From Minisyncoccota bacterium (lineage in GTDB: Bacteria > Patescibacteriota > Minisyncoccia > Phycocordibacterales > SW-6-46-9), in contig JBBDRP010000002.1 in NCBI GenBank assembly GCA_040905385.1, positions 85,337-149,336 of the forward strand: a DNA stretch of 64,000 nt, read 5' to 3'. Both the position numbers and the translations under genes were made by a program. This document shows, one piece after another, positions 43,336-56,689 of this stretch; position 1 is the stretch's first letter; each line of letters begins with the position of its first letter. Under the pieces are notes generated by a model. It was given only the letters and a program-made list of their open reading frames with translations. It was not told the DNA's origin and made no database searches.

Positions 43336-44598
43336 ATGTTTGATACATTTATTAAAAAAGTAAAGATCGCCTTTACCGATCCGGTTATTCGCAAGCGGAT
43401 TCTTTATACGTTGGGCGGTCTTTTTCTGTTTCGTATTCTGGCAACGGTGCCGGCACCGGGAATTGGTCAGGCCAACCTGGCGCCATTCTTTGCTGACAAT
43501 CAGTTTCTCGGACTTTTAAATATTTTTACCGGTGGAGGGCTTTCTAGTATTTCCATTGTGATGCTTGGAATTGGACCATACATTACTGCGGCTATTACCA
43601 TGCAGCTTTTGACGGTAATGAGCCCACGGCTGAAGTCGCTTTACCATGATGAGGGGCAGGCCGGAAAGCGAAAGTTCACCCAGTACTCTCGGCTTCTCAC
43701 TGTGCCACTGGCGGCTCTGCAGTCATTCGGTTTCCTGACACTGCTCCAGCAGTCAGACGTCATTGGCTCACTTGAGTGGTTCCCGCTAATGACTAACATT
43801 ATTGTCATTACAGCCGGTGCGGTGCTCTTGATGTGGATTGGTGAGCTGATTACCGAGTTTGGGGTAGGGAACGGTATTTCGCTACTTATTTTTGCTGGTA
43901 TTGTTGCCCAACTTCCAAGTACGATCGATCAGCTTATTCTTCAGTATACGCCGCAGATGCTGCCGACGTACCTTGGATTTGTGGCCATATCAGCCATTAT
44001 CGTCTGGGGTATCGTGGTGGTGACCGAGGCGGCCCGACCGGTGCCAATTACGTATGCCAAGCAGCGAGGACAGGGCAGCGGTGAGGTGTCTACGTATCTC
44101 CCGCTGAAGGTGAACCAGGCCGGTGTGATGCCGATAATTTTCGCGCTGTCTATCATGCTGTTTCCACAGATGGTGGTGAACTTCCTTGGTGCTGCTCCGG
44201 ATGCCGGTGGTTTCGTGGGCTTCCTGCAGAGTATTTATGAAAGTGACTTTATCTATGCTGGACTGTACTTTATTTTGGTTTTTCTCTTTACATTCTTCTA
44301 CACAGCCATTACCTTCGAACCAGACTCCGTGGCCGACAATCTGCAGAAATCCGGTGCCTTTATTCCGGGAATTCGCCCGGGCGAATCAACACGCCAGCAC
44401 ATCACTCACATCCTCACCCGCGTTACCTTCATTGGTGCCATCTTCCTGGGTCTTATCGCAGTGCTTCCAATTATCATGCAGCAGGTTACAAACACCCCAT
44501 CACTGGCAATCGGTGGTACCGCGCTGCTTATTGTGGTGGCGGTGCTGGTTGATCTTATTAAGCGATTAGACGGCCAAATAGCTATGCGCCAGTACTAG
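43336..44598 (+). CDS. secY: preprotein translocase subunit SecY
   Basis: 420 aa with 10 TM helices. GIGQAN, GGG.S..S..LGI.PYI.A.I..QL motifs. Confidence 0.9.
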   Translation: MFDTFIKKVKIAFTDPVIRKRILYTLGGLFLFRILATVPAPGIGQANLAPFFADNQFLGLLNIFTGGGLSSISIVMLGIGPYITAAITMQLLTVMSPRLKSLYHDEGQAGKRKFTQYSRLLTVPLAALQSFGFLTLLQQSDVIGSLEWFPLMTNIIVITAGAVLLMWIGELITEFGVGNGISLLIFAGIVAQLPSTIDQLILQYTPQMLPTYLGFVAISAIIVWGIVVVTEAARPVPITYAKQRGQGSGEVSTYLPLKVNQAGVMPIIFALSIMLFPQMVVNFLGAAPDAGGFVGFLQSIYESDFIYAGLYFILVFLFTFFYTAITFEPDSVADNLQKSGAFIPGIRPGESTRQHITHILTRVTFIGAIFLGLIAVLPIIMQQVTNTPSLAIGGTALLIVVAVLVDLIKRLDGQIAMRQY

Positions 44599-44828: not shown

Positions 44829-45389
44829 TTAATCACGCCATTGTTGGTAGGCGTCGATGACTTCTTTGGTTATTTTCTCGATACCTTTATTTGTTGTATC
44901 AATAACGAGGTCGTAGTTATCCGGATCAGTGTGATCAATATCATAGAGTTTTTTGTATCGCCGTTTTTCTCCGTCAATGCGCTCCTGCATCTCTCGGGCA
45001 GTTTTTTCAATTACGTCATGGTTCTCTCCGGATTTTATGCGTGTTTCTTTATTATCGGCGTGGATACGACGGGCGCCTTCCGCCAGGTCAACCGCCAGGT
45101 AGACTGCAAAGCTTTTGGGAATAAAGTGCCAGGCCAGTCGTGAGTCGATAATGACATTTTCAGCATCAGCCAGGCTCTTATTGCGGGCATCAATTGTCCG
45201 GTCAATTTCCGGGTTCTTCTCGGCTTCCTGGAGCAGCTTAGAAAGTGTGATGCCGCGTTCATGGGCGATTTCGCGCATGAAATCACCAGAGGAGAAGCGG
45301 CTCCAGCCCAGCTCTGCAGCAACTCGGTCAGCGATGGTTGATTTACCACTTCCGGGAAGACCACCGATGGTTATGATGGGTTTGCTCAT
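44829..45389 (-). CDS. cmk: cytidylate kinase
   Basis: P-loop ITIGGLPGSGKST. Start chosen at MSKPIITIGG. Antisense, between secY and adk. Confidence 0.8.
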   Translation of the reverse strand: MSKPIITIGGLPGSGKSTIADRVAAELGWSRFSSGDFMREIAHERGITLSKLLQEAEKNPEIDRTIDARNKSLADAENVIIDSRLAWHFIPKSFAVYLAVDLAEGARRIHADNKETRIKSGENHDVIEKTAREMQERIDGEKRRYKKLYDIDHTDPDNYDLVIDTTNKGIEKITKEVIDAYQQWRD

Positions 45390-45452: not shown

Positions 45453-46046
45453 ATGCAAAAACAAACATTCGTATTTCTTGGTCCACAAGGCAGCGGGAAG
45501 GGTACGCAGGCCGATCAGGTTGTTGCGTATCTGCGGGCAGAATCAGAAAGAGAGACGCTGTATTTTGAGACTGGTGCCGCGTTTCGACAGCTTGCCGAGG
45601 GTAGCAGCGAAACCAGTCATCACGTCCGTAAATCGCTAATTGCGGGCGATATACAGCCCTCTTTCTTGGCGGTTCGTCTCTGGGCAGAGGGTTTTGCGAC
45701 GGATCTCAATCAGGACATGCATCTGGTGGTGGATGGATCTCCACGGACACTGCTTGAGGCACGGATGCTGGACGAGGCCTTTGTGTTCTACGACCGAACG
45801 CCGGTAAAGGTCATCCATCTGACGCTACCGGAATCGGTGACGTACGAACGCCTGGCCGAGCGCGCCCGTGATGATGACCATCGCAGCGCCATCAAGCGAC
45901 GCCTGGCCGAGTACCAGGCCAAGACGCTACCGGTAATAGATTTCTATAAAGATTCAGATAACTACACTTACATCCAGATTGATGGGGAAGGGACCATTGA
46001 TGAAATTCAGCAGTCCATCCGCGATACAATTTCCTTACATGATTAA
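45453..46046 (+). CDS. adk: adenylate kinase, short form
   Basis: FLGPQGSGKGTQA P-loop. 197 aa. Confidence 0.85.
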   Translation: MQKQTFVFLGPQGSGKGTQADQVVAYLRAESERETLYFETGAAFRQLAEGSSETSHHVRKSLIAGDIQPSFLAVRLWAEGFATDLNQDMHLVVDGSPRTLLEARMLDEAFVFYDRTPVKVIHLTLPESVTYERLAERARDDDHRSAIKRRLAEYQAKTLPVIDFYKDSDNYTYIQIDGEGTIDEIQQSIRDTISLHD

Positions 46047-46806
46047 ACCAAAGACAACCGAAGAAATTGAGAAGCTGGCTGAAGGTGGCCACCGCCTGGC
46101 CGAGATTCTTTCTCGTCTTGCTGATGCCTGTCAGCCAGGTGTGGCGGTTAAGGATTTGGATGTCCAGGTTCAGGAGATGATTGCCCCCGAAGACAGCGCA
46201 GCCTTTTATAATTACCAGCCGGTTGGCGCACCGCGACCGTATCCGTCTCATGTCTGTGTCTCGGTCAATGACGAGATTGTGCACGGCATTGCCTCGGAAA
46301 GTGATCACGTTCTGGAGGACGGCGATGTGGTGACGGTGGATATGGGTCTACTTCATGAGGGACTAATTACCGACTCGGCCCGGACGATCGTGGTTGGGGA
46401 ATCTACTGATGAAAAAGACCGTCTTCTGAAAACCTGCCACGCGGCGCTGATGGCCGGTATCGATGCCATTACACCGGACGGTCACGTCGGTGATATCTCG
46501 GCTGCCATCCAGAAACGGATTGGTAATGACTACAGCATCTTTCGTGAACTGGTAGGTCACGGGGTTGGCTACAGCGTGCATGAGGACCCGGCTGTGCCAA
46601 ATTTTGGCCGTGCCGGTACGGGCCCGAAGCTACCGGTCGGGACAGTTATTGCTATCGAGCCGATGATTGGTCTCGGCAGCGACAGCGTGCTGGCCGACAG
46701 CGACGGCTATACCTACCGAACAAATGACGCTAGTCTTTCGGCTCATTTTGAGCATACCGTTGCCGTAACACCTACCGGCGGCCGGATACTTACCCACAAC
46801 CAGTAG
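46039..46806 (+). CDS. map: methionine aminopeptidase type I
   Basis: Pita-bread fold metal ligands (..D.G...D.., H.VGH..G, E.M). Start chosen at MIKPKT, overlapping the adk stop by 8 nt. Confidence 0.85.
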   Translation: MIKPKTTEEIEKLAEGGHRLAEILSRLADACQPGVAVKDLDVQVQEMIAPEDSAAFYNYQPVGAPRPYPSHVCVSVNDEIVHGIASESDHVLEDGDVVTVDMGLLHEGLITDSARTIVVGESTDEKDRLLKTCHAALMAGIDAITPDGHVGDISAAIQKRIGNDYSIFRELVGHGVGYSVHEDPAVPNFGRAGTGPKLPVGTVIAIEPMIGLGSDSVLADSDGYTYRTNDASLSAHFEHTVAVTPTGGRILTHNQ

Positions 46807-46857
46807 CTTCTTTACCTACCAATTTGTGCGTTATAATGGGTCTAATAACGTACGATT

Positions 46858-47751
46858 ATGCCTGGAAACTTTACACAAAAAAAAGAGCAACCACAGACTT
46901 TAAATAATAATGCAGACGTAAATGATGCGGCTTTAACTATTAAGGAGCAAATGATAGAAGCGCAAAAAGAAAGCAATGGTAATGGGTCACTTGGTGATCA
47001 TGTAGATATCGATGAAGTTGGTGAATTAAACAAGTCTGGTAAGAAAACTAATAAACTAGATAAAAAGCAAGAAGAAAAGAATGAAGGAGATGAAAGACTT
47101 CCAAAACGACCAACCAAAAATGGTCAGTCATCAAATACCGTAGAGAAGTCGGAATCAAAACCAGCGGCCAGTTCAGAGCAACCTACTGAGAAAGCTCCGC
47201 CGGCACCATACTCCGAAAATGAAACGGAGAAGAAAGTTGATTTCAGTGAGGAAAAGAATGATTCATCAGATACTAATAGTGAAGAAGGTAGCTCAGAAAT
47301 TACAATTGAATCCCAAAGAAAACCAAAGCTAGAAAAGATTATTTCGGCTGGTGACCCGGTACTTCTCTATGGAATCAAGGATTTTGATACACCAGGCGCC
47401 TGGTTCTATACCGGTGAATCAATAATGGTTAAGGAAGGCTCACAGCAAAAGAGCAAGGTGGAGATAATATATAAATATCCCGATGGTAGTGAGGGCGAGA
47501 AGCGAGAAGTATCTTGGTCGGAAATTACACCGATATATGAAAGTGCTGAAGAGTATACGCAGGCATTGCAGAAGATTCGTGACATATATGAAAAGGCAGT
47601 AGCGGAAAAAAACACTGACTACCAAGAGCATCTTGCCCATCTCTTAAAGCAGGTAAATTATTTTGCTATTGAAATTCTAAGAAAGGCTAAAGAGGAATAT
47701 GGGGCTCATTCAGAATCTGATCAAGATCAACTTGATAAAACCGCTGCTTAA
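46858..47751 (+). CDS. hypothetical acidic, largely disordered protein with a C-terminal small beta-rich module, paralogous to modules inside the giant protein
   Basis: 297 aa, K/E/S/N-rich. GDPVLLYGIKDFDTPGAWFYTGESIMVKEG..VEIIYKYPDGSEGEKREVSWSEITPIYE resembles the GDLVRYLDDGG.. and GDKVHWKNHLG.. segments of the protein at 47763-52868. Confidence 0.5.
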   Translation: MPGNFTQKKEQPQTLNNNADVNDAALTIKEQMIEAQKESNGNGSLGDHVDIDEVGELNKSGKKTNKLDKKQEEKNEGDERLPKRPTKNGQSSNTVEKSESKPAASSEQPTEKAPPAPYSENETEKKVDFSEEKNDSSDTNSEEGSSEITIESQRKPKLEKIISAGDPVLLYGIKDFDTPGAWFYTGESIMVKEGSQQKSKVEIIYKYPDGSEGEKREVSWSEITPIYESAEEYTQALQKIRDIYEKAVAEKNTDYQEHLAHLLKQVNYFAIEILRKAKEEYGAHSESDQDQLDKTAA

Positions 47752-47762
47752 TTTTATATATT

Positions 47763-50700
47763 ATGAATCCAGATAAATCAAAAATACAGAATCAACCCCC
47801 AGAAGTTATGAACCCTCCTATTGACGAGCGAGAGAGAGGTATGAATAATATGAGGAATAACATTGAAAGAAGAGAAAGGGTGCGTGAAGGTCTGGAAGAT
47901 ATAGGAGAGCTTTCTGAAGAAATCAAGCGGCTTGCAGATGAGGTTAATGAAGCTGATAAAATTATCATCAAAGAAGGTATACCATCAATCCGGAAGGCCG
48001 ATAATACGGAGTGGAAGTTCGAGATTGATAAAGAGGTGGTAGATAAAGATTCACCAGAAGCTACACCTGAGCCTAAGGAGGAACGTGATCAGGGGAAGTC
48101 GAAAGATAATCAGGAAACCGTTGATGCTGAGTCATCCGAAGGCCAGAAAGAAGAGCAAGTATATGAAAATCACCCAGAGGAAGAGGAAGTGGAGGTAGTG
48201 GCTTCACCAGATTCAGAAAAAACAGAAGCCGAGTTAGGAGATACAGAGAAAGAATCCCAACCAGAGCAGCCGAAAAAGCCAGTGACGCTAAGAAATGAAG
48301 TGGAAGCCAATCCAAAAAAGGAGTATGGAGACTTTGATCGCCTTAAAGTGGCCGAGATGCTCCGTGACGGTGCGTCAGACGAGGAAATCTGGCAGGCTTC
48401 CAAGGAGCACGGCTTCTTCTTTAAATTCGATGGCTCCAGCTATTACTTAGGTGATAACGATAAGTGGCGACATCGTAGTGCAGAAGGAAATACGCACACT
48501 AATATAGAAGAGGAAGAAGAAGCTAAAGAAAAAGTACTAAATGAACTTGACAAGTACCGCCAGATGGAAGACTGGTTCGGTAGCTACGAGGATGCGTTTG
48601 TTGCTGCTAATGCATTATATGTTAATGAGATACCCCAAAATAAGACAGACTTACTGAATAAAATGGGGCAGATTTCAGCATCATGGGAGGATATCAAGAA
48701 AGATAATAAAGATATTCGCGAGCTGGTAGCGTCAGCTTTGGGTACACCCGATGATCAGATGGCTGAAAATATTAATACAAATGATGAGAATTTATCAGAT
48801 AAAAAAGATAACATTAAAAAAGATAACATGAGCCCAGAAAAATCAGGTGTACCTAAGGATCAGGAGAGAGAGGATGTGAAACGCCCCGAGGACTCAGCAG
48901 CAGAAACTCCTGAAAATCAAGAATCAACCGAGGGAATTAAGGAGGGAGATCTTGTTCGATATTTAGACGATGGCGGAAGCAAAGTGAAGGAAGCTGTACG
49001 AGTTACAGACACAAAAGTCGAAGATGGTAAAACCTTCATTTCGTTTGATGGCGGGAAAAAATATTATCAGTTTGCCGAGTATGCCGATGATCCAAACAGT
49101 GGACTAAATAAAATCTATTCGGAATCAAATGAAGAAGAGGCTGAAAATTCAACTGAAGATCGAAAATCTGCGGAGGGAATTAAGGCAGGTGATAAGGTTC
49201 ATTGGAAGAATCATCTCGGTGAGAGGAGTGGTGAAAAAATTGTGGCCGAAATCAAGGGATCGGGTGAGGATGCCATGGTCTTCTTCGAAGACGACAGTCG
49301 TGGGTATCCAATCAGTGAAGTTTATCCAGTCGATAATGAGAAGACTGAAGAATCAGATATCGTGCCGGATGCAGAAAATGCTACTCAGGAGGAAGTAGAA
49401 AGTAATGAAGTACTTAGTAAGTTCGAATCTCGCTTTGGTATCTCTACTGAGGCACTTGAAAGTATTGATGGCTTTCCTCAGGGTAAAGCAGAGCAGCGGT
49501 GGATCCTAGAAAATCTTACGCAGCTGACAATGGGAATGATTGAGTCTGAGGGAGAAAAACGTCGTGAGAAAGCGCTTGATGCCAGTATTCCGGATGAGTG
49601 GAAATCGGATGCTGGTGGTCGGTTAAAAAACTTTTTCAATAAAGTAAAAATAGGATTTACAAAACTTCAAGAAGGAGTGGAAACGAAAAATCACACTGTC
49701 TCATTTAAGCAGCAAATTTTAGAAGAGATAGAAAATGGTGGAATTAAAGAACATGGCTCCACTATAAAAGAGCTCATAAATAGTCTGAACGAGTCTGACT
49801 TTGGTGTAAAAATTAATGAAGAAACAGATGAGCTCGAGTATGATTTTGTTTCGATGCCAGAAGCTGCTACTGAAGCCCAAGCGGAAGTAATTCAAAATTA
49901 CAATGAAGTTGCTACCAAGATGGCTAATACGCCGCGAGAATGGCAGTATGACTCCGCTACTAAATCACAACGAAAGCAGTATGAGGGGGCCAAAGCTGAT
50001 TACGATGAGGCTCGCAAAGAGCTAGCCACGTTAAAGCTTGATCATGGCGAATTAAAAGGTGACGATCTAGCAGTAGCTCAGTACCTCAATGAAAAAGACT
50101 TTGGAGTAGAGATGAATCAGCTGCTTAATACCAATCCAGAGCTGGGTGAAGAGATTGAAGATATTAGCAATCAGTCGGTGTGGTGGCAAACAATTAAAGG
50201 CGGATTCAACCAAAAGAATGCCGTAAATGCCTTGATTGGTGTTGGTGGTGCTGCTACTCGCTGGGCAACTGCTAGCGCAACCTTTGGTATAGGAGCTGTT
50301 GCTTCTGGTGCTGCTGTCGGATCCTTGCGCGGGAAGCTTGAAGCCGGGCGAAAAATACGCCAAAAAGAAAAAGATGCTCGTTACGGCGGTATTGACAATA
50401 TTCCCGGAATTGAAGATCTGACCACGGTTCGTGATCAAATTACTGCCACTGAAGAAGAAATCGCTGCTACTGATGATGATAAGCAGGTAGCAGTGCTTAA
50501 AGAGAGACGTAGAGAATTGCTAGAAAAACGCGACGAGCTTGTACAGAGAAAAGATATCAGGCAGAAGTTGTACGAAGCTGGCGCGATTGTTAACGCCGGT
50601 GATCTGATTGAGAAACTTGAGCGTGATATTAGTTTGGTTGAGGATTCTGATCCAGAATCAAACCAGCGAGAAAATCGTCTGGGATCTCTGGATGCTCGTG

Positions 50701-52868
50701 TACAGTATGTGGTTAATAAACTGGATCAGGGGATTGTGAACTTTGGTGCAAATTCAGCTGATATCGCTTCTGCCAAGATGAACTTAATGAAGCTTCTGTC
50801 TCAGGCCGAGGTAACTACCGAAACATATGGTGATGAATGGGGGGCGAAAGTATTTGATGAGTGGGTGGAACGTGTTGATCTTAAAAATCAAGAAGAAATT
50901 GAACAGGCTCGAAAAGCATTTACTCGAAAAGAGATGGCCAAGGCTGCCGGGGTTAGTGCAGCCTTCTTTGGTACAGGTTACGGATTACGGTGGGCAGGTG
51001 AGACGTTAGGATGGTGGGGGGGAGATTCAGTAGAGATTCTAGCTGACAGCCCAGAAATATCTGAAGGCCCACCTGGGGGGCAGGTACCGGACTCAACTGT
51101 CGAAGCTAGTCCTCTTAGTCCAGCTGCGGCTGATTCAGCAGATGCGGATACGACTGGCGCAAACCCATTTGTGCCAGATCTAGAAACCGCTCCAGCTGAA
51201 AGTACATCTACTGATACGTCTAGTCTCGAAGAGATTAACTTCCCTGATGCAGATTCTACTGCGGTAGACTCAACTACTGCCGACAGTGTCAGTACAGAAG
51301 CGACCGCGCAAGAAGAAAATCCACTCGAGAGTAACCTGGAAACTGCCGCCGCAGATTCAACAAATGTTGATACAACAGAAGCATCTGAGTCAGTAGCCGC
51401 GTCAGCAGCAGCCGAGACAGATGTCAATCCCGAAGTCATCGGTGTCCGAGAGGTCGTAATCGATGAACAGGGCGAGGGCATGATCCACGCTATCGCTGAT
51501 AAGCTCGAGGATGACTTTGATCTTCCGCGTGACAAGGCGATGCGGATTGGAAATGAGATGTACATCAAGGGCGAGCAGGCAGGTGAAGATTCTGTCGAAA
51601 GAATGTACAACCTGATTGGTCGAGACGCCAGCTTCTCGCTTGATTTTGGTGACCTGACGGCCGAAGACCTCGAGGGTGAGTCGGTCGAAGACCTGGCCGA
51701 GCGCATCAATTTTAGCAATGAAAGCGTTGATTCCGACCTCAAGGAGTTTGATTTACCAAAGCAGGAATCAGCTGCCGCAGGCGCTTCTGACAGCTCAGAT
51801 AACCCTTATTATGGAGAGAAAAACCCGATCGACACCAAGGATATTGATTCAGTCACTATCAATGAAGCCAACCAACAGGCCTGGGATAAGCAGATGGATG
51901 AGTCTGGTGTCATTAGGGGCGACGATCTTCCTGAAGGGGCACGTGAAGACGCAGATATGGGGCGTGCTCCGGCTCCGGAACGAGTTGATATCGGTATTGA
52001 TAAACTAAAGGCGGCCGTAGCTGAATCTGATGTGCGAGACCAAATTTATGCCGATCTCGACCAGCGGGTAAATGCCGCTCGGATGAATCCACAAGCCTTG
52101 TCTGAAGGTATGCGTGTTTCTGATCTGGCTGCCCTCCGTGATTATATGCAGGCAAATCCCGACCAGAATCTCATAGTTTCGATTGACGCCATGCGCGAAG
52201 GTGATCGGCGCATGCTGCGAACGCTTGATTTACTTATCGAGTCCAAGGCCAATGAGCCCGGAAGTGTGCTGGAAAAAGTCGACCGCTACATCTCAACCGG
52301 TATTGGTGACATGACCATCGAAGCTGATGCAGCACCTGAATCCGTACAAACTCCAGATGAAGGAGGGGATATTGATGCGGTCCGTAAGGAGATGGAGGAG
52401 GCCGGAACACCAATTGATGAAGAGCCCGAAATTGAGGTAAGAACGTCAGCCGCGGCAGTTAGTGATGGGCTAGAGGCACTGAAAACTGAAGTTGATCAGA
52501 TTCCGTCAGATAAGCTGCAGGCAATGGCAACACACATGTCAGCGCAAGCCTACGTTGAGCCAGAGTTCATCAACGTTCCATCCGAACGACTAGAGGCACT
52601 GGAAAATTACCTTGAAGAAAATGCGACGCGTTCTACTTCAGGAATGATTCAGAAAATGAGCGAAGAATCTCCAGAAACAATTACAGCTTTTGAACGAGTG
52701 ATGAATCTGGATGACAGTGGTGACATTGTTGATCGTAAGTCATTGCGACCGGTGTATAAGATGACTCAAAAGCTGATCAGCAACCTAACCGAAGAAAATT
52801 TCCCAGGCGGTATTCCGGAGTATGCACGTGAAAGCCTTGAGGCCAGCCGATCTGCAACCCAGGCCTAA
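47763..52868 (+). CDS. giant (1701 aa) highly acidic protein with two central hydrophobic segments and coiled-coil regions
   Basis: Single uninterrupted ORF with strong codon periodicity. No signal peptide. Hydrophobic stretches at about aa 820-850 (NALIGVGGAATRWATASATFGIGAVASGAAVGSL) and about aa 1060-1085 (AAGVSAAFFGTGYGLRWAGETLGWWGG). Long D/E/T/S-rich low-complexity tracts. Confidence 0.6.
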   Translation: MNPDKSKIQNQPPEVMNPPIDERERGMNNMRNNIERRERVREGLEDIGELSEEIKRLADEVNEADKIIIKEGIPSIRKADNTEWKFEIDKEVVDKDSPEATPEPKEERDQGKSKDNQETVDAESSEGQKEEQVYENHPEEEEVEVVASPDSEKTEAELGDTEKESQPEQPKKPVTLRNEVEANPKKEYGDFDRLKVAEMLRDGASDEEIWQASKEHGFFFKFDGSSYYLGDNDKWRHRSAEGNTHTNIEEEEEAKEKVLNELDKYRQMEDWFGSYEDAFVAANALYVNEIPQNKTDLLNKMGQISASWEDIKKDNKDIRELVASALGTPDDQMAENINTNDENLSDKKDNIKKDNMSPEKSGVPKDQEREDVKRPEDSAAETPENQESTEGIKEGDLVRYLDDGGSKVKEAVRVTDTKVEDGKTFISFDGGKKYYQFAEYADDPNSGLNKIYSESNEEEAENSTEDRKSAEGIKAGDKVHWKNHLGERSGEKIVAEIKGSGEDAMVFFEDDSRGYPISEVYPVDNEKTEESDIVPDAENATQEEVESNEVLSKFESRFGISTEALESIDGFPQGKAEQRWILENLTQLTMGMIESEGEKRREKALDASIPDEWKSDAGGRLKNFFNKVKIGFTKLQEGVETKNHTVSFKQQILEEIENGGIKEHGSTIKELINSLNESDFGVKINEETDELEYDFVSMPEAATEAQAEVIQNYNEVATKMANTPREWQYDSATKSQRKQYEGAKADYDEARKELATLKLDHGELKGDDLAVAQYLNEKDFGVEMNQLLNTNPELGEEIEDISNQSVWWQTIKGGFNQKNAVNALIGVGGAATRWATASATFGIGAVASGAAVGSLRGKLEAGRKIRQKEKDARYGGIDNIPGIEDLTTVRDQITATEEEIAATDDDKQVAVLKERRRELLEKRDELVQRKDIRQKLYEAGAIVNAGDLIEKLERDISLVEDSDPESNQRENRLGSLDARVQYVVNKLDQGIVNFGANSADIASAKMNLMKLLSQAEVTTETYGDEWGAKVFDEWVERVDLKNQEEIEQARKAFTRKEMAKAAGVSAAFFGTGYGLRWAGETLGWWGGDSVEILADSPEISEGPPGGQVPDSTVEASPLSPAAADSADADTTGANPFVPDLETAPAESTSTDTSSLEEINFPDADSTAVDSTTADSVSTEATAQEENPLESNLETAAADSTNVDTTEASESVAASAAAETDVNPEVIGVREVVIDEQGEGMIHAIADKLEDDFDLPRDKAMRIGNEMYIKGEQAGEDSVERMYNLIGRDASFSLDFGDLTAEDLEGESVEDLAERINFSNESVDSDLKEFDLPKQESAAAGASDSSDNPYYGEKNPIDTKDIDSVTINEANQQAWDKQMDESGVIRGDDLPEGAREDADMGRAPAPERVDIGIDKLKAAVAESDVRDQIYADLDQRVNAARMNPQALSEGMRVSDLAALRDYMQANPDQNLIVSIDAMREGDRRMLRTLDLLIESKANEPGSVLEKVDRYISTGIGDMTIEADAAPESVQTPDEGGDIDAVRKEMEEAGTPIDEEPEIEVRTSAAAVSDGLEALKTEVDQIPSDKLQAMATHMSAQAYVEPEFINVPSERLEALENYLEENATRSTSGMIQKMSEESPETITAFERVMNLDDSGDIVDRKSLRPVYKMTQKLISNLTEENFPGGIPEYARESLEASRSATQA

Positions 52869-52894
52869 GAGTCATATAGTTCTTTTATCTTTAT

Positions 52895-55669
52895 ATGCAG
52901 CAGACTACAAGAGAAAAACTAGCTCATAATCTTGCTTCACCCGAGGAGGAGATTTCACATCTTCGCCAGGAGATTCACGCTCGTCACGCCGAGGCTGGTC
53001 ATGCCTCACCAGAGGCAGCGGCTGAGCATTCTGCTGAGTCTGCTGCCCAGATGGAGCGAGAGGTAGTGCGCGAGTACGCTGACGGTGAAGACAAGCAAAC
53101 CCTGTCTCCGGAGTATCGGATGGGTGACCAGCAGGCCGAGGAGATTGTGCTGGATCTGAAGCCAGAAGCCCATGACAAGCAAATGGACGAACTTCTTGGA
53201 ATCATGGCCGAGGAGGGGCTTAAAAACACTTTGCGTATTGTGCGGGATCTCGATGATCCACATCTTGAAGATGACTTTCATCGCATTCTTATTCAGTACG
53301 TAAAGGAGGGGTATCCGCTCGACGGCGTCAAGGAAGGCACACCCCGTTTCAAGGCGCTGCATCGACGACTGTTCGAGGTAGTGCTCACCGCCGAGGATGA
53401 AGACGAGAAGGAGCGCGACATCCGCGAGCTCATCTCGGCTACAGAGCAGTTTTATGCCGGAATTCTTTCGCTTAGTAATCAGGGAAAACCAGGTGATTTC
53501 ACGATCTCAATCGAGGTGGCGGTTGAGCACTCCAGTGAGCAGGTTAGCTTCTATCTGTCGCTTCCGGATGTCCGAGCTGATATGTTCGAGAAACAGCTTC
53601 TGTCATTGTTCCCAAATGCGGTCGTTCGGGAAACCGAAGATGACTACAACATCTTCAATCACGACGGCGTATCTGTTGGCTCTCGAGCCCAGGCAGACAA
53701 TCGCAGTATATTTCCGCTAAAAACATATGATGACTTCAATCATGATTCGCTAAATGTATTGTTGAATGCGTTCTCAAAGCTAGAGCGTGAAGGGGAGGGG
53801 GCAGCTGCACAGATTATTCTTCAGCCGGCCGGTGATACGTACTACAAAAAGTACACCAAAGCCATCGAGGCCATAGAGGATGGCGAGAATCTTTCCGAAG
53901 CAATAAATGTCAGCCCGACCTTTCTTGATCAGGCCTGGGGTACCGCCAAGGATTTTTTTGGTACGAAAAAGAAAAAAGATGAAGAGGAAGAGTTTTCTGG
54001 TCTCGGCCAGCGTGAGCAGGATGCGATCGAGCGAATTCAGGAGAAAACCGACTCACCAATCCATCGCACTAATATTCGTCTGGTTAGCTCGGCCAACTCT
54101 CGTTCCCGAGCTGAAAAGATTTTGTTTGATCTCGAGTCAGCCTTTAGCCAGTTTTCTGAGCCGCATGGCAACAGTCTCTCCTTCAAGCGAGTAAAGGAGA
54201 AGTATTACGGCAGCTTCTTTCATCAGTACGTTTTTCGCCTGTTTGATAAATCCTACTTGCTGCCGCTAAACATAAAGGAGCTAACCTCATTGGTGCACTT
54301 CCCGGTGCGAGATCTCGATGATTCCCGAGAGCTCAAGCAGGGCAAATCTGCCTCGGCTCCGCCACCTCTGGACATCCCAGAATCAGGCCTACTACTAGGC
54401 GTAAATAAGTATCGTGGAAATGACACGGATATCTACCTAACGGAAAAAGATCGCATGCGTCATTTTTACGCTATCGGCCAGACCGGTACCGGTAAAACGA
54501 CACTGTTGCAGAACATGATCGCGCAGGATATTCAGGAGGGCCGTGGCTGCTGCTTCATCGACCCACACGGTGATGTTATCAATGATCTGCTTGCCGTAGT
54601 TCCTCCAGAGCGATTTAAGGATGTTATCTACTTTGACCCGGCGCATACGGCGCGACCAATGGGGCTAAACATGCTCGAGTACAATACTGATTACCCCGAG
54701 CAGAAGACATTTGTGGTCAACGAGATGCTGTCGATTTTCAGCAAACTTTTTGATATGCAGGCCACTGGTGGTCCGATGTTCGAGCAGTACTTTCGCAACG
54801 CTACCATGCTGGTACTTGAGGATCCTTCCACGGGCTCAACGCTACTGGAGATTTCACGCGTGCTGGCTGACAAGGACTTTCGCGACCGTAAGCTGTCAAA
54901 CTCCAATAACCCGATCGTAAATCAGTTTTGGCGCGAGGTGGCCGGTAAGGCTGGTGGGGAGGCCAGTTTGGAAAATATTGTGCCGTACATCACCTCAAAG
55001 TTTGATAACTTTCTTTCAAATGAGATTATGCGGCCAATTATTGCTCAACAGGAGTCCAGCTTCAACTTCCGCCAGGTGATGGACGAGGAAAAGATCCTGC
55101 TGGTAAACCTCTCAAAGGGGCGGCTGGGAGATCTGAATGCTAATCTACTTGGCTTGATTCTGGTAGGCAAGATTCTGATGTCAGCCCTCAGTCGGGTGGA
55201 TATTCCAGCTTCGAAGCGCAAGCCGTTCTATCTCTATATGGATGAGTTTCAGAACATTGCCACCGACTCAATCGCTACCATTCTTTCCGAGGCTCGAAAA
55301 TACCAGCTATCCCTGAATGTCGTGCATCAGTACATCGACCAGCTGCAGGACAGCATTCGCGATGCGGTGTTTGGAAACGTTGGTTCTATGGCAGCCTACC
55401 GTGTTAGCTCCAAAGACGCCGAGGTGCTATCAGAAATGTACGCGCCCGTTTTCTCTCAGCGGGATATTATGAATGTCGACAATTACAACTACTTTGCCAA
55501 GATTCTGGCGGATGGTCAGCCAGTCAAGCCATTTTCCGTCAGCGCGCTGCCGCCAACAGAAGGGAACACGGGGCAGGTCGAGAAACTGAAAAAGATCTCT
55601 TATCTCAAGTACGGCCGTGACCGCAAGAAGGTCGAGAAAGAAATTATGGAGAAGTATAAAAACCTCTAA
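52895..55669 (+). CDS. P-loop ATPase of the type IV secretion coupling-protein / VirB4-like superfamily (TraG/VirD4/TraD-like), with no N-terminal membrane anchor
   Basis: Walker A YAIGQTGTGKTTLL, then CFIDPHGD (the DPxGE-type motif of T4SS ATPases) and FDP..TARPMGLNMLE (NPL-like). Walker B LYMDEFQNIA. The N-terminal 470 aa are hydrophilic and unassigned. Confidence 0.55.
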   Translation: MQQTTREKLAHNLASPEEEISHLRQEIHARHAEAGHASPEAAAEHSAESAAQMEREVVREYADGEDKQTLSPEYRMGDQQAEEIVLDLKPEAHDKQMDELLGIMAEEGLKNTLRIVRDLDDPHLEDDFHRILIQYVKEGYPLDGVKEGTPRFKALHRRLFEVVLTAEDEDEKERDIRELISATEQFYAGILSLSNQGKPGDFTISIEVAVEHSSEQVSFYLSLPDVRADMFEKQLLSLFPNAVVRETEDDYNIFNHDGVSVGSRAQADNRSIFPLKTYDDFNHDSLNVLLNAFSKLEREGEGAAAQIILQPAGDTYYKKYTKAIEAIEDGENLSEAINVSPTFLDQAWGTAKDFFGTKKKKDEEEEFSGLGQREQDAIERIQEKTDSPIHRTNIRLVSSANSRSRAEKILFDLESAFSQFSEPHGNSLSFKRVKEKYYGSFFHQYVFRLFDKSYLLPLNIKELTSLVHFPVRDLDDSRELKQGKSASAPPPLDIPESGLLLGVNKYRGNDTDIYLTEKDRMRHFYAIGQTGTGKTTLLQNMIAQDIQEGRGCCFIDPHGDVINDLLAVVPPERFKDVIYFDPAHTARPMGLNMLEYNTDYPEQKTFVVNEMLSIFSKLFDMQATGGPMFEQYFRNATMLVLEDPSTGSTLLEISRVLADKDFRDRKLSNSNNPIVNQFWREVAGKAGGEASLENIVPYITSKFDNFLSNEIMRPIIAQQESSFNFRQVMDEEKILLVNLSKGRLGDLNANLLGLILVGKILMSALSRVDIPASKRKPFYLYMDEFQNIATDSIATILSEARKYQLSLNVVHQYIDQLQDSIRDAVFGNVGSMAAYRVSSKDAEVLSEMYAPVFSQRDIMNVDNYNYFAKILADGQPVKPFSVSALPPTEGNTGQVEKLKKISYLKYGRDRKKVEKEIMEKYKNL

Positions 55670-55739: not shown

Positions 55740-56345
55740 ATGACGCATTTTAAGGAAGAACGAACACTGGTAATCATCAAGCCTGACGGTGTGCAGCGCT
55801 CACTGATTGGTGAGATTATCAAGCGCTTCGAGCGTGTTGGTCTCAAGCTGGCTGCACTGAACTTCACAGTCCCTGAGCCAGACCTGGTTGAAAAGCATTA
55901 CCTGCTTGACCCCAACTGGAAGCGGATTGTCGGCGAGAAGGCGATCGAGTCGTACGAGAAAAATGGCGAGACACCGCCGTCTGATGACCCCGAAGAGCTT
56001 GGTGAGAAGGTCTTGACCGGACTGAAGAAGTACATGAGCTCTGGTCCGGTAGTGGTGATGTGCTGGAAGGGGGCGCACGCTGTAAAGCTGGTGCGTAAAC
56101 TGGTGGGTGGCACCGAGCCACTATCATCAGATGTTGGTACCATTCGCGGTGATTTCGTGCTTGATTCCTACAAGATGTCTGACACTGACGGCCGTTCTGT
56201 ACGTAATCTGATTCACGCCTCTGGCTCGGTAGAGGAAGCCAAGCAGGAGATCGAGCTCTGGCTATCAGAGGACGACATTGTTGATTACCAACTGGTGCAG
56301 GAGAAGATTCTTTACGACATAAACCTCGACGGAATTCTCGAGTAA
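55740..56345 (+). CDS. ndk: nucleoside diphosphate kinase, extended form
   Basis: ERTLVIIKPDGVQRSLIGEIIKRFE..G.K..A, HASGS motif. 201 aa. Confidence 0.8.
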   Translation: MTHFKEERTLVIIKPDGVQRSLIGEIIKRFERVGLKLAALNFTVPEPDLVEKHYLLDPNWKRIVGEKAIESYEKNGETPPSDDPEELGEKVLTGLKKYMSSGPVVVMCWKGAHAVKLVRKLVGGTEPLSSDVGTIRGDFVLDSYKMSDTDGRSVRNLIHASGSVEEAKQEIELWLSEDDIVDYQLVQEKILYDINLDGILE

Positions 56346-56689
56346 TGACGCGTCTTAAAATGTCGCCAGTTGCAGGGTTGATCGAATCCGCCTTTTTGAC
56401 GAGGTGTCAAGATGTATATCTATCGGCTTCTCCGCTTGCGTACGAGGCTATTTCTGGCGTACAATAACTACTGAGGCCATTCAACGAAACGAGTCCTCAT
56501 TTATGACACAAGGGAGCCTTACATCGGGTAGACGTGCTGATTCGTTCAGACGTTTACTGCCAAAAATACGGCCGCAAAGATTCCACTCTTTGTCACTGCG
56601 GGCACCCACTTGGAAAATTCGTGGTCTGGTTTCCCCGATGGTCTCACAAAAGAGTGTCTCCGCATACAGGAGGCATTTTTTTATTTTAT

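What the first reader, a model, noticed from the sequence alone, without database searches (positions are those of the whole stretch)
46858..55669. Three-gene module replacing the rest of the alpha operon: acidic protein, 1701-aa giant acidic protein with two hydrophobic segments, and an anchorless T4SS-type ATPase
After map, the expected infA-rpmJ-rpsM-rpsK-rpsD-rpoA-rplQ genes are absent. In their place are three co-oriented, tightly spaced genes.

The first encodes a 297 aa acidic disordered protein. It ends in a small beta-rich module. Similar GD.V... modules recur at least twice inside the giant protein, so the first two genes are paralogous.

The 1701 aa giant protein is extremely D/E-rich. 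It has no signal peptide. It has two glycine/alanine-rich hydrophobic segments about 210 aa apart, flanked by coiled-coil-like regions.

The 924 aa protein has a C-terminal ATPase half carrying Walker A GQTGTGKTT, a DPHGD motif, an NPL-like motif and Walker B YMDEF. These are characteristic of VirD4/TraG/TraD coupling proteins and related VirB4 ATPases. It lacks the usual N-terminal transmembrane anchor and has a unique 470-aa N-terminal region.

This looks like a dedicated ATPase-plus-substrate module. The giant protein could be a secretion or DNA-transfer substrate, or a surface/pilus-associated or host-interaction protein. I do not recognise it as a described system.
Basis: partly seen in the sequence, partly recalled or inferred. 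Interest (0 to 1): 0.72.

Follow-up and report, generated by a model that had tools for sequence, protein, structure and literature searches.

The report
Core VirB4-like ATPase with hypervariable acidic partners
A soluble type-IV-secretion-style motor ATPase, as conserved as SecY across Paceibacteria (ultra-small, likely host-dependent bacteria), sits at the end of the ribosomal/secY operon and in this lineage is preceded by a small protein and a giant, very acidic, fast-evolving protein that may be its client.

Summary

It is not part of a mobile T4SS. It is a core Paceibacteria gene (>1,100 homologues, at least 596 genome loci), as conserved as SecY. Its ancestral position is map-ATPase-ndk, and no T4SS genes lie nearby. 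The alpha-operon genes are missing after map in every relative, so nothing was replaced.

The two upstream genes fill a hypervariable slot. In the window's clade (ATPase 55-89% identical) the slot almost always holds a small protein plus a 1,300-2,200-aa very acidic protein. These evolve about three times faster than their neighbours and are mosaic. In 17 of 46 more distant loci the slot is empty.

The giant's 550-aa core defines an unannotated family (457 clusters). This family lies beside the ATPase in distant lineages, in either gene order, which suggests functional coupling. The proposed paralogy of genes 1 and 2 is not supported. Function remains inferred: a translocation motor with polymorphic acidic clients.

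The parts
45979..46806 (+). map (methionine aminopeptidase), the conserved upstream anchor of the slot
   Evidence: Pfam Peptidase_M24 E 5.6e-41. It lies upstream of the ATPase in 46 of about 70 informative loci.
46832..46837 (+). TATAAT hexamer 20 nt upstream of the 297-aa ORF start, a possible internal -10 box (unverified)
   Evidence: Read directly from the sequence. The promoter scan overall was not above shuffled expectation.
46858..47751 (+). 297-aa acidic protein: disordered N-terminal half, then a conserved C-terminal ~110 aa (beta-rich module plus helices)
   Evidence: ORF. No Pfam, NCBIfam, PADLOC or PHROG hit. Homologous only to the small proteins of L090 (E 3e-46) and L005 (E 1e-14). 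Unrelated to the DUF5663-type small proteins at the same position in L087-L089.
47763..52868 (+). 1701-aa giant acidic protein (22% D+E, net charge -187), a mosaic of conserved islands and disordered acidic linkers
   Evidence: The word-index search found only 5 homologues. Alignment A2 shows the conserved islands. It is 30% identical to its ortholog in L090, where the ATPase is 87% identical.
48930..49334 (+). Two tandem ~55-aa beta-rich 'GD.V' modules (aa 390-443 and 471-524), likely small beta-barrels
   Evidence: Regex plus HMM of the modules from five giants. The fold was not tested.
49380..51032 (+). Core domain of the giant (aa 540-1090), which defines a large unannotated protein family
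   Evidence: phmmer against 1.84 billion representatives gave 457 hits at E<=1e-3, 358 at <=1e-10 and 32 at <=1e-30, in proteins of 450-2600 aa at about 30% identity. 38 members have no shared Pfam domain. No PDB relative.
50220..50330 (+). First G/A-rich hydrophobic segment (aa ~820-856), a possible membrane helix or hairpin
   Evidence: Best 19-mer Kyte-Doolittle 1.35 here. The family-mean hydropathy peak is 1.62 at aa ~834. The segment is missing in the L090, L091 and L087 giants.
50937..51017 (+). Second G/A-rich hydrophobic segment (aa ~1059-1085)
   Evidence: Family-mean hydropathy peak 0.93 at aa ~1057. Marginal for a transmembrane helix.
51357..51710 (+). 'EGMIHAIAD...FSLDFGDL' module (aa ~1199-1316), the best-conserved island of the giant
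   Evidence: Invariant columns in A2. Shared with otherwise unrelated giants upstream of the ATPase in L006, L088 and L089 (E 1e-12 to 1e-14) and with 3 of 149 core-family representatives.
52895..55669 (+). 924-aa soluble ATPase of the DUF8128 family, VirB4/VirD4 lineage
   Evidence: 1146 homologues at E<=1e-5, about 50% identical over the full length. At least 596 genome loci.
52895..54304 (+). N-terminal domain (aa 1-470; DUF8128) with a VirB4 N-terminal-domain fold
54389..55666 (+). C-terminal RecA-type motor domain with a helical insertion (aa ~603-716)
54476..54499 (+). Walker A GQTGTGKT (aa 528-535)
   Evidence: Invariant in 25 and in 36 homologues.
55235..55249 (+). Walker B YMDEF (aa 781-785)
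   Evidence: D783, E784 and F785 are invariant.
55740..56345 (+). ndk (nucleoside diphosphate kinase), the conserved downstream neighbour
   Evidence: Pfam NDK E 5e-37. Directly downstream of the ATPase in most loci.

Best explanation
SHOWN.
The 924-aa gene encodes a soluble, two-domain ATPase of the type-IV-secretion VirB4/VirD4 lineage. It has a VirB4-like N-terminal domain (Pfam DUF8128) and a RecA-type motor with intact Walker A and B motifs.
It is a core, vertically inherited gene of Paceibacteria. Its ancestral place is at the tail of the ribosomal/secY operon, in the order secY-adk-map-ATPase-ndk. It evolves as slowly as SecY. It is never next to other T4SS, relaxase or mobile-element genes in the loci examined.
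The two upstream genes occupy a hypervariable slot between map and the ATPase. In the window's clade this slot is almost always filled by a small protein plus a 1,300-2,200-aa extremely acidic protein. Both are co-oriented and tightly spaced, evolve about three times faster than their neighbours, and are built from shuffled modules.
The giant's 550-aa core belongs to a large unannotated family. That family is found beside the DUF8128 ATPase in distant lineages, in both gene orders.

INFERRED.
The ATPase forms a hexameric ring that uses ATP to unfold, translocate or assemble protein clients at the cell envelope.
The giant acidic proteins, together with their small partners, are its lineage-specific clients. 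They could be cargo or a membrane-docking partner.
The VirB4-like N-terminal domain takes the place of the missing membrane anchor by docking on membrane partners. These could be components of the chromosomal T4SS encoded elsewhere in Patescibacteria genomes.
For: ATPase identity:
- Pfam T4CP families pass gathering thresholds. NCBIfam gives TraD/VirD4-like hits.
- The PDB profile search puts TrwB and DotL first.
- Walker motifs are invariant.

Core-gene status:
- 1146 homologues, all from Patescibacteria where named, and at least 596 genome loci.
- map lies upstream in 46 loci, ndk lies downstream in most, and the arrangement is scattered over the ATPase tree.
- Identity to L090, L005 and L091 is 87, 77 and 72% for the ATPase against 85, 81 and 77% for SecY.
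- The alternative contexts are also housekeeping: mraZ-mraW-ftsI, DAG kinase, DNA alkylation repair.

Slot:
- 9 of 10 loci with ATPase >=55% identity have a co-oriented 1316-2224-aa ORF with 20-25% D+E, 4-74 nt upstream.
- The small and giant proteins are only 34% and 30% identical where SecY is 85%.
- The small proteins fall into at least three unrelated families. The giants are mosaic.

Linkage:
- The core family has 457 representative clusters.
- Of 44 metagenome loci holding a family member, 7 have the ATPase within 3 kb. The orders are giant->ATPase (L094), ATPase->giant (L099, L128, L129), about 2 kb apart (L123, L134) and opposite strand (L135).
- My rough estimate of chance expectation for one given gene within 3 kb in a ~1-Mb genome is below 1%.

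Literature:
- 5,713 VirD4-type homologues were found in 2,918 Patescibacteria genomes, only 148 of them near virB4. The authors say exaptation cannot be ruled out (PMC12102498).
Against: - No direct evidence exists for any substrate or for the transport direction.
- In 17 of 46 map-linked loci the ATPase directly follows map with nothing in the slot. Partners are therefore not required in cis.
- About 10 core-family loci with at least 3 kb of flank on both sides have no ATPase nearby. One family member, P0125 in L085, sits after map-ruvX-recO with aspS downstream.
- Giants upstream of the ATPase in other clades are not detectably homologous to this one.
- The hydrophobic segments are weak and are absent from some orthologous giants.
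- The giant has no signal peptide and no recognisable T4SS signal.
- The nearest structural relatives also include DNA motors (TrwB, HerA, DptH), so a nucleic-acid substrate is equally compatible with the fold.
- The AF2 models are of moderate confidence (pLDDT 71 and 76).
Confidence: 0.45

Rival explanations
1. Housekeeping nucleic-acid motor with passenger neighbours. The ATPase moves DNA or RNA, for example in DNA uptake feeding nucleotide salvage, chromosome segregation or repair. The small and giant genes merely occupy a permissive, fast-turnover intergenic slot and have nothing to do with it.
For: - It is a core gene conserved like SecY.
- It is embedded among nucleotide kinases: cmk-like and adk in the window, with cmk-like on the opposite strand; UMP-kinase-type AA_kinase and guanylate kinase in relatives; ndk immediately downstream.
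- The slot is empty in 17 of 46 loci and sometimes holds opposite-strand or non-acidic genes, such as the 2117-aa Peptidase_S74 protein in L016.
- The structural neighbours TrwB, HerA, DptH and FtsK are DNA motors.
- Distant homologues occur in Bacillus phages, one between a partition protein and an integrase.
Against: - The core family of the giant recurs next to the ATPase in distant lineages and in both orders, in 7 of 44 loci.
- The arrangement is strictly co-oriented with gaps of 4-74 nt in 9 of 10 clade members, despite non-homologous replacement.
- adk and map are ordinary members of this operon in most bacteria (established knowledge), so the kinase neighbourhood is weak evidence.
Confidence: 0.25
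2. Structural partner rather than cargo. The giant protein is a membrane-embedded scaffold or stator that anchors the anchorless ATPase through its two hydrophobic segments, functionally replacing VirB3 or the T4CP transmembrane domain. Its acidic arms serve another role, for example as a surface or cytoplasmic matrix.
For: - The first hydrophobic segment is conserved across the core family, with mean hydropathy 1.62.
- In VirB4 the N-terminal domain binds membrane subunits (established knowledge from the R388 structures that are the top structural hits).
- The genes are tightly coupled.
Against: - The hydrophobic segments are absent from the giants of L090, L091 and L087 in the same clade.
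- Many ATPase loci have no such neighbour.
- Extreme sequence turnover is unusual for a structural core subunit.
Confidence: 0.15
3. Anti-phage defence module. A HerA/DptH/mad8-like ATPase is paired with rapidly diversifying sensor or effector proteins.
For: - PADLOC mad8 hit at E 8e-14, plus weak HerA hits.
- The neighbours are hypervariable and mosaic.
Against: - The gene is present in at least 596 genome loci (one genome per species) at a fixed housekeeping position, with SecY-like conservation. Defence genes are usually patchy and found in islands (established knowledge).
- No nuclease, Sir2, TIR or other effector domain was found in any partner.
- The PADLOC match covers only the generic motor domain (aa 520-824).
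Confidence: 0.07
4. Remnant or cargo of a conjugative element. The ATPase is the coupling protein of an integrated mobile T4SS, and the giant is a transferred or surface protein of that element.
For: Database names such as 'type IV secretory system conjugative DNA transfer family protein' and 'TraM recognition domain-containing protein'. Pfam TraG-D_C hit.
Against: - No relaxase, integrase, VirB6, VirB3 or VirB8 lies within the 64-kb window's large ORFs or within +-10 kb in about 90 loci, as far as these were annotated.
- The chromosomal position is conserved across the ATPase tree.
- There is no compositional break.
Confidence: 0.03

Closest known systems
VirB4 ATPases of type IV secretion systems (TrwK of R388; monoderm VirB4 of Thermoanaerobacter, PDB 4ag5)
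   Same: - Two-domain build: an N-terminal alpha/beta domain plus a C-terminal RecA-type motor with a helical insertion.
- Full-length Foldseek E 7e-15 to TrwK.
- No membrane-spanning segment of its own.
   Different: - No Pfam VirB4 family hit (CagE_TrbE_VirB or AAA_10) and no VirB4 in the PDB profile search.
- About 10% sequence identity.
- The Walker B context 'DEF' resembles T4CPs more than VirB4; this comparison rests on my recall and was not tested here.
- Not adjacent to VirB3, VirB6 or VirB8. According to PMC12102498, Patescibacteria encode a separate canonical VirB4, which in most classes including Paceibacteria lies near dnaA/dnaN.
- An extra ~150-aa helical N-terminus.
Type IV coupling proteins (VirD4/TraG/TraD; TrwB, DotL, Cag-beta)
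   Same: - Best sequence-profile matches: Pfam T4SS-DNA_transf over aa 508-820, TrwB_AAD_bind and TraG-D_C; NCBIfam TraD; PDB profile TrwB E 1.4e-4.
- Foldseek TM-score 0.60-0.65 when normalised to TrwB.
- Helical insertion in the motor domain.
   Different: - No N-terminal transmembrane anchor. A 470-aa VirB4-like domain takes its place.
- No relaxase or T4SS neighbourhood.
- A core chromosomal gene rather than an element-borne one.
Orphan VirD4-type homologues of Patescibacteria reported by Quinonero-Coronel et al. 2025 (PMC12102498)
   Same: This is probably the same population of genes. The paper reports 5,713 homologues in 2,918 genomes, only 148 near virB4, and suggests they may be exapted.
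   Different: As far as my term searches of that paper showed, it does not describe the VirB4-like N-terminal fold, the map-ATPase-ndk position or the hypervariable acidic partners. I did not verify that this exact family is in their set.
HerA / FtsK / DptH / EccC ring ATPases
   Different: - No NurA, Sir2 or DUF4297 partner.
- FtsK and EccC score clearly lower than VirB4 and TrwB.
Type VII secretion loci of Firmicutes (EssC ATPase with variable cassettes of large LXG proteins and small helical partners). An analogy from my own knowledge, not tested.
   Different: No homology of the partners to WXG100 or LXG families was detected. The ATPase is closer to VirB4/T4CP than to EssC/EccC. No other T7SS genes were seen.
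phrog_5156 and T4CP-like proteins of Bacillus/Geobacillus phages (SP-10, Goe26, phage G gp156, D6E gp23)
   Same: Near full-length homology: profile E 7.6e-89 over aa 170-923, and tblastn about 21% identity over 56-78% of the protein. They are also soluble and of unknown function.
   Different: They are phage-borne accessory genes. D6E gp23 lies between a partition protein and an integrase. They have no acidic giant neighbours and no ribosomal-operon context.

Membership tests
Pfam PF26449 (DUF8128) ATPase family | N-terminal DUF8128 domain followed by a P-loop motor, about 920 aa | tested here: met
   All 120 listed homologues (51-89% identical, full-length) carry a precomputed PF26449 hit. 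The window protein aligns end to end with them. The local Pfam copy did not report PF26449 for the window protein itself, so membership rests on homology.
Type IV coupling protein (VirD4/TraG/TraD/TrwB) | Motor domain matching T4CP sequence profiles | tested here: met
   PF02534 27.6 bits (cut-off 20.1) over aa 508-820. PF10412 27.0 bits (cut-off 20.5). PF12696 25.1 bits (cut-off 22). TrwB is the best PDB profile hit. All NCBIfam T4CP hits fall far below their curated cut-offs.
Type IV coupling protein (VirD4/TraG/TraD/TrwB) | N-terminal transmembrane anchor | tested here: not met
   No hydrophobic 19-mer in aa 1-500. The maximum, 1.73, lies at aa 747-765 inside the motor fold.
Type IV coupling protein (VirD4/TraG/TraD/TrwB) | Encoded with a relaxase and/or the mating-pair-formation genes of a T4SS | tested here: not met
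   No such genes appear among the annotated neighbours in 11 annotated loci or among the recurrent neighbour clusters of 84 loci. Whole genomes could not be examined.
VirB4 | Two-domain architecture with the VirB4 N-terminal-domain fold | tested here: met
   [not shown]
VirB4 | Motor domain of VirB4 type | tested here: inconclusive
   [not shown]
VirB4 | Genomic association with VirB3, VirB6 and VirB8 | tested here: not met
   Same neighbourhood surveys as above.
HerA-type helicase/translocase | HerA N-terminal barrel domain and a nuclease or effector partner (NurA, Sir2, DUF4297) | tested here: not met
   The N-terminal fold matches the VirB4 NTD, not HerA. No partner with such domains was found. 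Only the central DUF87 region matches, at 25.1 bits against a cut-off of 23.2.
Unannotated 'giant core' family (defined here by aa 540-1090 of the 1701-aa protein) | About 550-aa core with motifs FGI..E.L, GQQ.LVLENL, PYEW, NQFLNTHPE and GLVNFG, plus two G/A-rich hydrophobic segments | tested here: met
   457 representative clusters at E<=1e-3. Family consensus and hydropathy. The window protein scores 566 bits against the family HMM.
Active P-loop ATPase | Walker A lysine and Walker B acidic pair conserved | tested here: met
   G528-K534 and D783-E784 are invariant in 25 and in 36 sequences. Catalysis itself is not testable here.

The most novel reading that the evidence does not exclude
The DUF8128 ATPase, together with the polymorphic small-plus-giant acidic proteins, is a previously unrecognised, Paceibacteria-wide export or assembly machine. 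It would be a soluble VirB4-like motor, wired into the ribosomal/secY operon, that delivers fast-evolving giant acidic proteins to the cell surface or into host cells. It would be central to the host-dependent lifestyle of these ultra-small bacteria, and distinct from the canonical T4SS, or a new substrate-recruitment arm of it.
Probability: 0.2. Interest if true: 0.85.

Novelty: new variant of a known kind. Interest (0 to 1): 0.6.

Why it matters
Patescibacteria make up a large share of bacterial diversity, and how they interact with hosts is mostly unknown. Their canonical T4SS has been reported to be essential in the one genetically tractable species.

Thousands of 'orphan' VirD4-like genes in these genomes have no assigned role. 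This analysis shows that one such family:
- is a core gene, as conserved as SecY;
- has a VirB4-like docking domain in place of a membrane anchor;
- is repeatedly linked to giant, hypervariable, very acidic proteins from an unannotated family.

That yields a concrete, testable hypothesis of motor plus polymorphic clients for a widespread dark-matter gene set. It also describes an architecture (VirB4-like N-terminal domain, T4CP-like motor sequence) that bears on how T4SS ATPases diversified.

Tried and rejected
1. Paralogy of the 297-aa and 1701-aa proteins. BLASTP gave E 2.1 and the module HMM gave no hit. Rejected.

2. The word-index homologue search on the giant gave only 5 hits. On the core alone it returned nothing, not even the identical P0121. 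This looks like a candidate-selection failure, because the exhaustive phmmer search found 457.

3. An HMM of the six closest giants, and later of the core family, was searched against all ORFs near about 90 ATPase loci. Only the window, L005, L086 and L085 matched. The acidic proteins upstream of the ATPase in other clades are therefore not detectably the same family.

4. Pfam, NCBIfam, PADLOC, PHROGs and PDB searches gave nothing informative for the 297-aa protein, the giant, 9 other upstream proteins and 38 core-family members. The exceptions were a PcfJ-like domain in L028 and Peptidase_S74 in L016.

5. The mobile-element reading was rejected on synteny and composition.

6. The idea that the hydrophobic segments are a universal feature of the giants was rejected.

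7. The idea that the EGMI module tracks ATPase adjacency holds only partly. L086's adjacent giant lacks it.

8. A fold search against AFDB50 was not available.

9. The first attempt at a metagenome scan failed because the alignment had no conserved stretch. It succeeded with a tighter alignment.

10. Promoter-like sites were not above shuffled expectation. Terminator-like sites exceeded it (22 found against 13.2 expected, sd 3.7), but none marks a clear boundary between the three genes.

11. Literature searches for DUF8128 and for giant acidic proteins in Patescibacteria found nothing specific.

Full report
**1. The observation**

The window holds three co-oriented ORFs at 46858-47751 (297 aa), 47763-52868 (1701 aa) and 52895-55669 (924 aa). 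They are separated by 11 and 26 nt. Upstream lie SecY (43336-44598), adenylate kinase and methionine aminopeptidase (map, 45979-46806). Directly downstream lies nucleoside diphosphate kinase (ndk, 55740-56345). Further downstream come rplT, rpmI and infC on the opposite strand.

The giant protein has 382 D+E against 195 K+R, a net charge of -187. The ATPase carries GQTGTGKT (aa 528-535), DPHGD (556-560) and YMDEF (781-785), and it has no N-terminal hydrophobic segment. The alpha-operon genes infA, rpmJ, rpsM, rpsK, rpsD, rpoA and rplQ give no tblastn hit anywhere in the 64-kb window, while the rplN and rplT controls are found. These parts of the observation are correct.

Two points are not correct. 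First, the 297-aa and 1701-aa proteins are not detectably paralogous. BLASTP gives E 2.1 and not at the proposed modules. An HMM built from the 'GD.V' modules of five giants does not hit the 297-aa protein. The two tandem modules inside the giant (aa 390-443 and 471-524) are real and recur in its homologues. Second, nothing 'replaced' the alpha operon. The same break after map is present in all of about 90 related loci, including those where map directly abuts the ATPase.

**2. What the ATPase is**

Sequence profiles place the C-terminal half with type IV coupling proteins.
- Pfam T4SS-DNA_transf matches aa 508-820 at 27.6 bits (cut-off 20.1). TrwB_AAD_bind, TraG-D_C and DUF87 also pass their thresholds.
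- NCBIfam gives weak TraD/VirD4-type hits, all far below their curated cut-offs.
- A 25-sequence profile searched against PDB sequences finds TrwB (E 1.4e-4), then DotL (0.012), then HerA (0.096). It finds no VirB4.

Every homologue carries a precomputed Pfam DUF8128 (PF26449) hit on the N-terminal half.

I predicted the full protein (pLDDT 71) and the N-terminal 490 aa alone (pLDDT 76, pTM 0.70).
- Foldseek aligns the whole chain to full-length TrwK at E 7e-15.

The protein is therefore a soluble, VirB4-like two-domain ATPase whose motor sequence is nearest to coupling proteins. The Walker A and B residues are invariant across the family.

**3. It is a core gene, not a mobile T4SS component**

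The protein has 1146 homologues at E<=1e-5. The best 120 are all 51-89% identical over the full length, and all named sources are Patescibacteria/Paceibacteria.

Of 84 loci examined, 46 have map upstream of the ATPase within 10 kb, and ndk follows directly in most. This arrangement is spread over all branches of an ATPase similarity tree, so it is ancestral. Where the gene has moved, its neighbours are again housekeeping genes: mraZ-mraW-ftsI, diacylglycerol kinase, DNA alkylation repair.

No relaxase, integrase, VirB3, VirB6 or VirB8 gene was seen in any annotated locus. The window shows no compositional break.

Between the window and loci L090, L005 and L091, the ATPase is 87, 77 and 72% identical. 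SecY is 85, 81 and 77%, while adk and map are clearly lower.

A published survey reports 5,713 VirD4-type homologues in 2,918 Patescibacteria genomes. Only 148 of them lie near virB4, and the authors note that exaptation cannot be excluded (PMC12102498). This family is very probably part of that set. I found no paper naming DUF8128.

**4. The upstream slot**

In 17 of the 46 map-linked loci, map abuts the ATPase with a gap of 28-176 nt and no intervening gene. In the others the gap holds variable genes.

Within the window's clade (ATPase >=55% identical), 9 of 10 loci have a co-oriented ORF of 1316-2224 aa with 20-25% D+E and 8-12% K+R, ending 4-74 nt before the ATPase. It is usually preceded by a small protein. 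These genes turn over very fast: against L090 the small and giant proteins are 34% and 30% identical, where SecY is 85%.

The small proteins belong to at least three unrelated families:
- the 297-aa type, in the window, L090 and L005;
- the DUF5663 type, in L087-L089;
- the 122-aa protein of L091.

The giants are mosaics. The window, L005 and L086 share a 550-aa core. L006, L088 and L089 carry a different body but share the window's best-conserved 'EGMIHAIAD...FSLDFGDL' module (aa ~1199-1316). L087 shares a further region with L089.

In a sister clade the ATPase is preceded by other charged proteins and by a ~96-aa helical protein. None of these proteins has a Pfam domain, except a PcfJ-like domain in L028. 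The non-acidic 2117-aa slot gene of L016 carries a Peptidase_S74 domain.

**5. The giant's family and its link to the ATPase**

The word-index search found only five homologues of the giant. An exhaustive phmmer search with the core (aa 540-1090) against 1.84 billion representatives found 457 proteins at E<=1e-3, 358 at <=1e-10 and 32 at <=1e-30. They are 450-2600 aa long and about 30% identical.

The family has no Pfam or PDB relative. Its conserved motifs include FGI..E.L, GQQ.LVLENL, PYEW, NQFLNTHPE and GLVNFG. It has two G/A-rich hydrophobic segments, with family-mean hydropathy 1.62 for the first and 0.93 for the second. These segments are weak in the window protein and are missing in the giants of L090, L091 and L087.

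One member, P0125, sits after map-ruvX-recO with no ATPase nearby. I then scanned metagenome contigs with a tight core alignment and recovered 44 loci. In 7 of them the DUF8128 ATPase lies within 3 kb, in different arrangements:
- giant then ATPase (L094);
- ATPase then giant (L099, L128, L129);
- about 2 kb apart (L123, L134);
- opposite strand (L135).

About 10 loci with at least 3 kb of flank on both sides lack the ATPase. By my rough estimate, chance adjacency of one particular gene within 3 kb in a ~1-Mb genome is below 1%. The linkage is therefore non-random and independent of gene order, but it is not obligatory.

**6. Mechanism**

Shown: a conserved, probably active ring-type ATPase of the VirB4/VirD4 lineage with no membrane anchor. 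It is co-oriented and tightly spaced with its neighbours, and it is recurrently linked to giant acidic proteins.

Inferred: it works as a translocation or unfolding motor for these proteins and their small partners. The VirB4-like N-terminal domain may provide docking to membrane components, possibly those of the chromosomal T4SS encoded elsewhere. I give this 0.45.

The main rival (0.25) is a housekeeping nucleic-acid motor whose neighbours are passengers. Its support is the empty slots, the DNA-motor relatives and the nucleotide-kinase neighbourhood: cmk-like, adk and ndk in the window, and UMP kinase and guanylate kinase in relatives.

Other readings are a structural-anchor role for the giant (0.15), a defence system (0.07; PADLOC mad8 E 8e-14, DptH and HerA-effector structures) and a conjugative-element remnant (0.03).

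**7. Comparison and novelty**

The ATPase is a member of the catalogued but uncharacterised DUF8128 family. It fails the T4CP tests for a membrane anchor and a T4SS neighbourhood. It meets the VirB4 architecture test by structure, but not by sequence profile or neighbourhood.

Distant full-length homologues exist in Bacillus and Geobacillus phages: phrog_5156 at E 7.6e-89, and about 21% identity by tblastn. Their function is also unknown.

I rate the whole as a new variant of a known kind. The kind, a T4SS-type ATPase, is known, and its orphan status in Patescibacteria has been noted. As far as my searches showed, three things have not been described: the VirB4-like N-terminal fold, the SecY-like conservation at a fixed map-ATPase-ndk position, and the hypervariable acidic partners from a large unannotated family. 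Interest 0.6.

Noticed in passing
window 44829-45389 (-), 45453-46046 (+), 55740-56345 (+); L087, L088, L089, L091: The region around the ATPase is unusually rich in nucleotide kinases. The window has a cytidylate-kinase-like gene on the opposite strand between secY and adk, then adk, then ndk right after the ATPase. Relatives add a UMP-kinase-type AA_kinase gene and, in L088, guanylate kinase. This could hint at a nucleotide-salvage theme or could be coincidental.
   Followed up: partly
ATPase aa 170-923 (window 53403-55663); phage records NC_019544.1, OM728296.1, NC_019487.1, NC_023719.1: PHROG phrog_5156 (unknown function) matches nearly the whole ATPase at E 7.6e-89. tblastn finds ~21%-identical homologues in Bacillus phages SP-10, Goe26 and G (gp156) and in thermophilic phage D6E. 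D6E gp23 lies between a partition protein and the integrase.
   Followed up: partly
[not shown]
   Followed up: no
L085 8001-13073: A 1690-aa member of the giant's core family (P0125) is encoded after secY...map-ruvX-recO and before two aspartyl/asparaginyl-tRNA synthetase genes, with no DUF8128 ATPase within 8 kb. It occupies the same general post-map neighbourhood but without the motor.
   Followed up: partly
L087 5467-5787, L088 3126-3482, L089 4865-5221, L060 4363-4671: Small (~100-120 aa) helical DUF5663-type proteins recur next to the giant or directly upstream of the ATPase in several lineages. Another ~96-aa helical family (L001, L010, L019, L026, L053) sits directly upstream of the ATPase in a sister clade.
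   Followed up: partly
L028 5909-7990; L016 3548-9901: Two slot genes in other lineages carry recognisable domains. One is a PcfJ-like domain (PF14284, known from the conjugative plasmid pCF10) in a 693-aa protein. The other is a Peptidase_S74 'chaperone of endosialidase' domain at the end of a non-acidic 2117-aa protein with an N-terminal signal-like segment.
   Followed up: no
window 46832-46837: A perfect TATAAT hexamer lies 20 nt upstream of the ATG of the 297-aa ORF. None of the three genes has an obvious Shine-Dalgarno sequence.
   Followed up: no
window 47763 vs 47808: The database copy of the giant protein (P0121, 100% identical) is 1686 aa, so it was called from the second in-frame Met, 15 codons downstream. 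The true start is uncertain.
   Followed up: no
L021 and L024 (contigs CALRBL010000059.1 and CALRBL010000034.1 of one MAG): One Nomurabacteria MAG carries two DUF8128 ATPase genes that are only 64% identical. They are either true paralogues or a mixed bin.
   Followed up: partly
window 56648-56682 (+) and 57136-57114 (-): Strong terminator-like hairpins lie after the ndk region and after rplT. They are consistent with converging transcription units ending between 56.6 and 57.1 kb.
   Followed up: no
tool behaviour: The word-index homologue search with the giant's core (window 49380-51032) returned no hit at all, not even the identical P0121. The exhaustive search found 457. Negative results from that tool on low-complexity acidic proteins should not be trusted.
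   Followed up: yes
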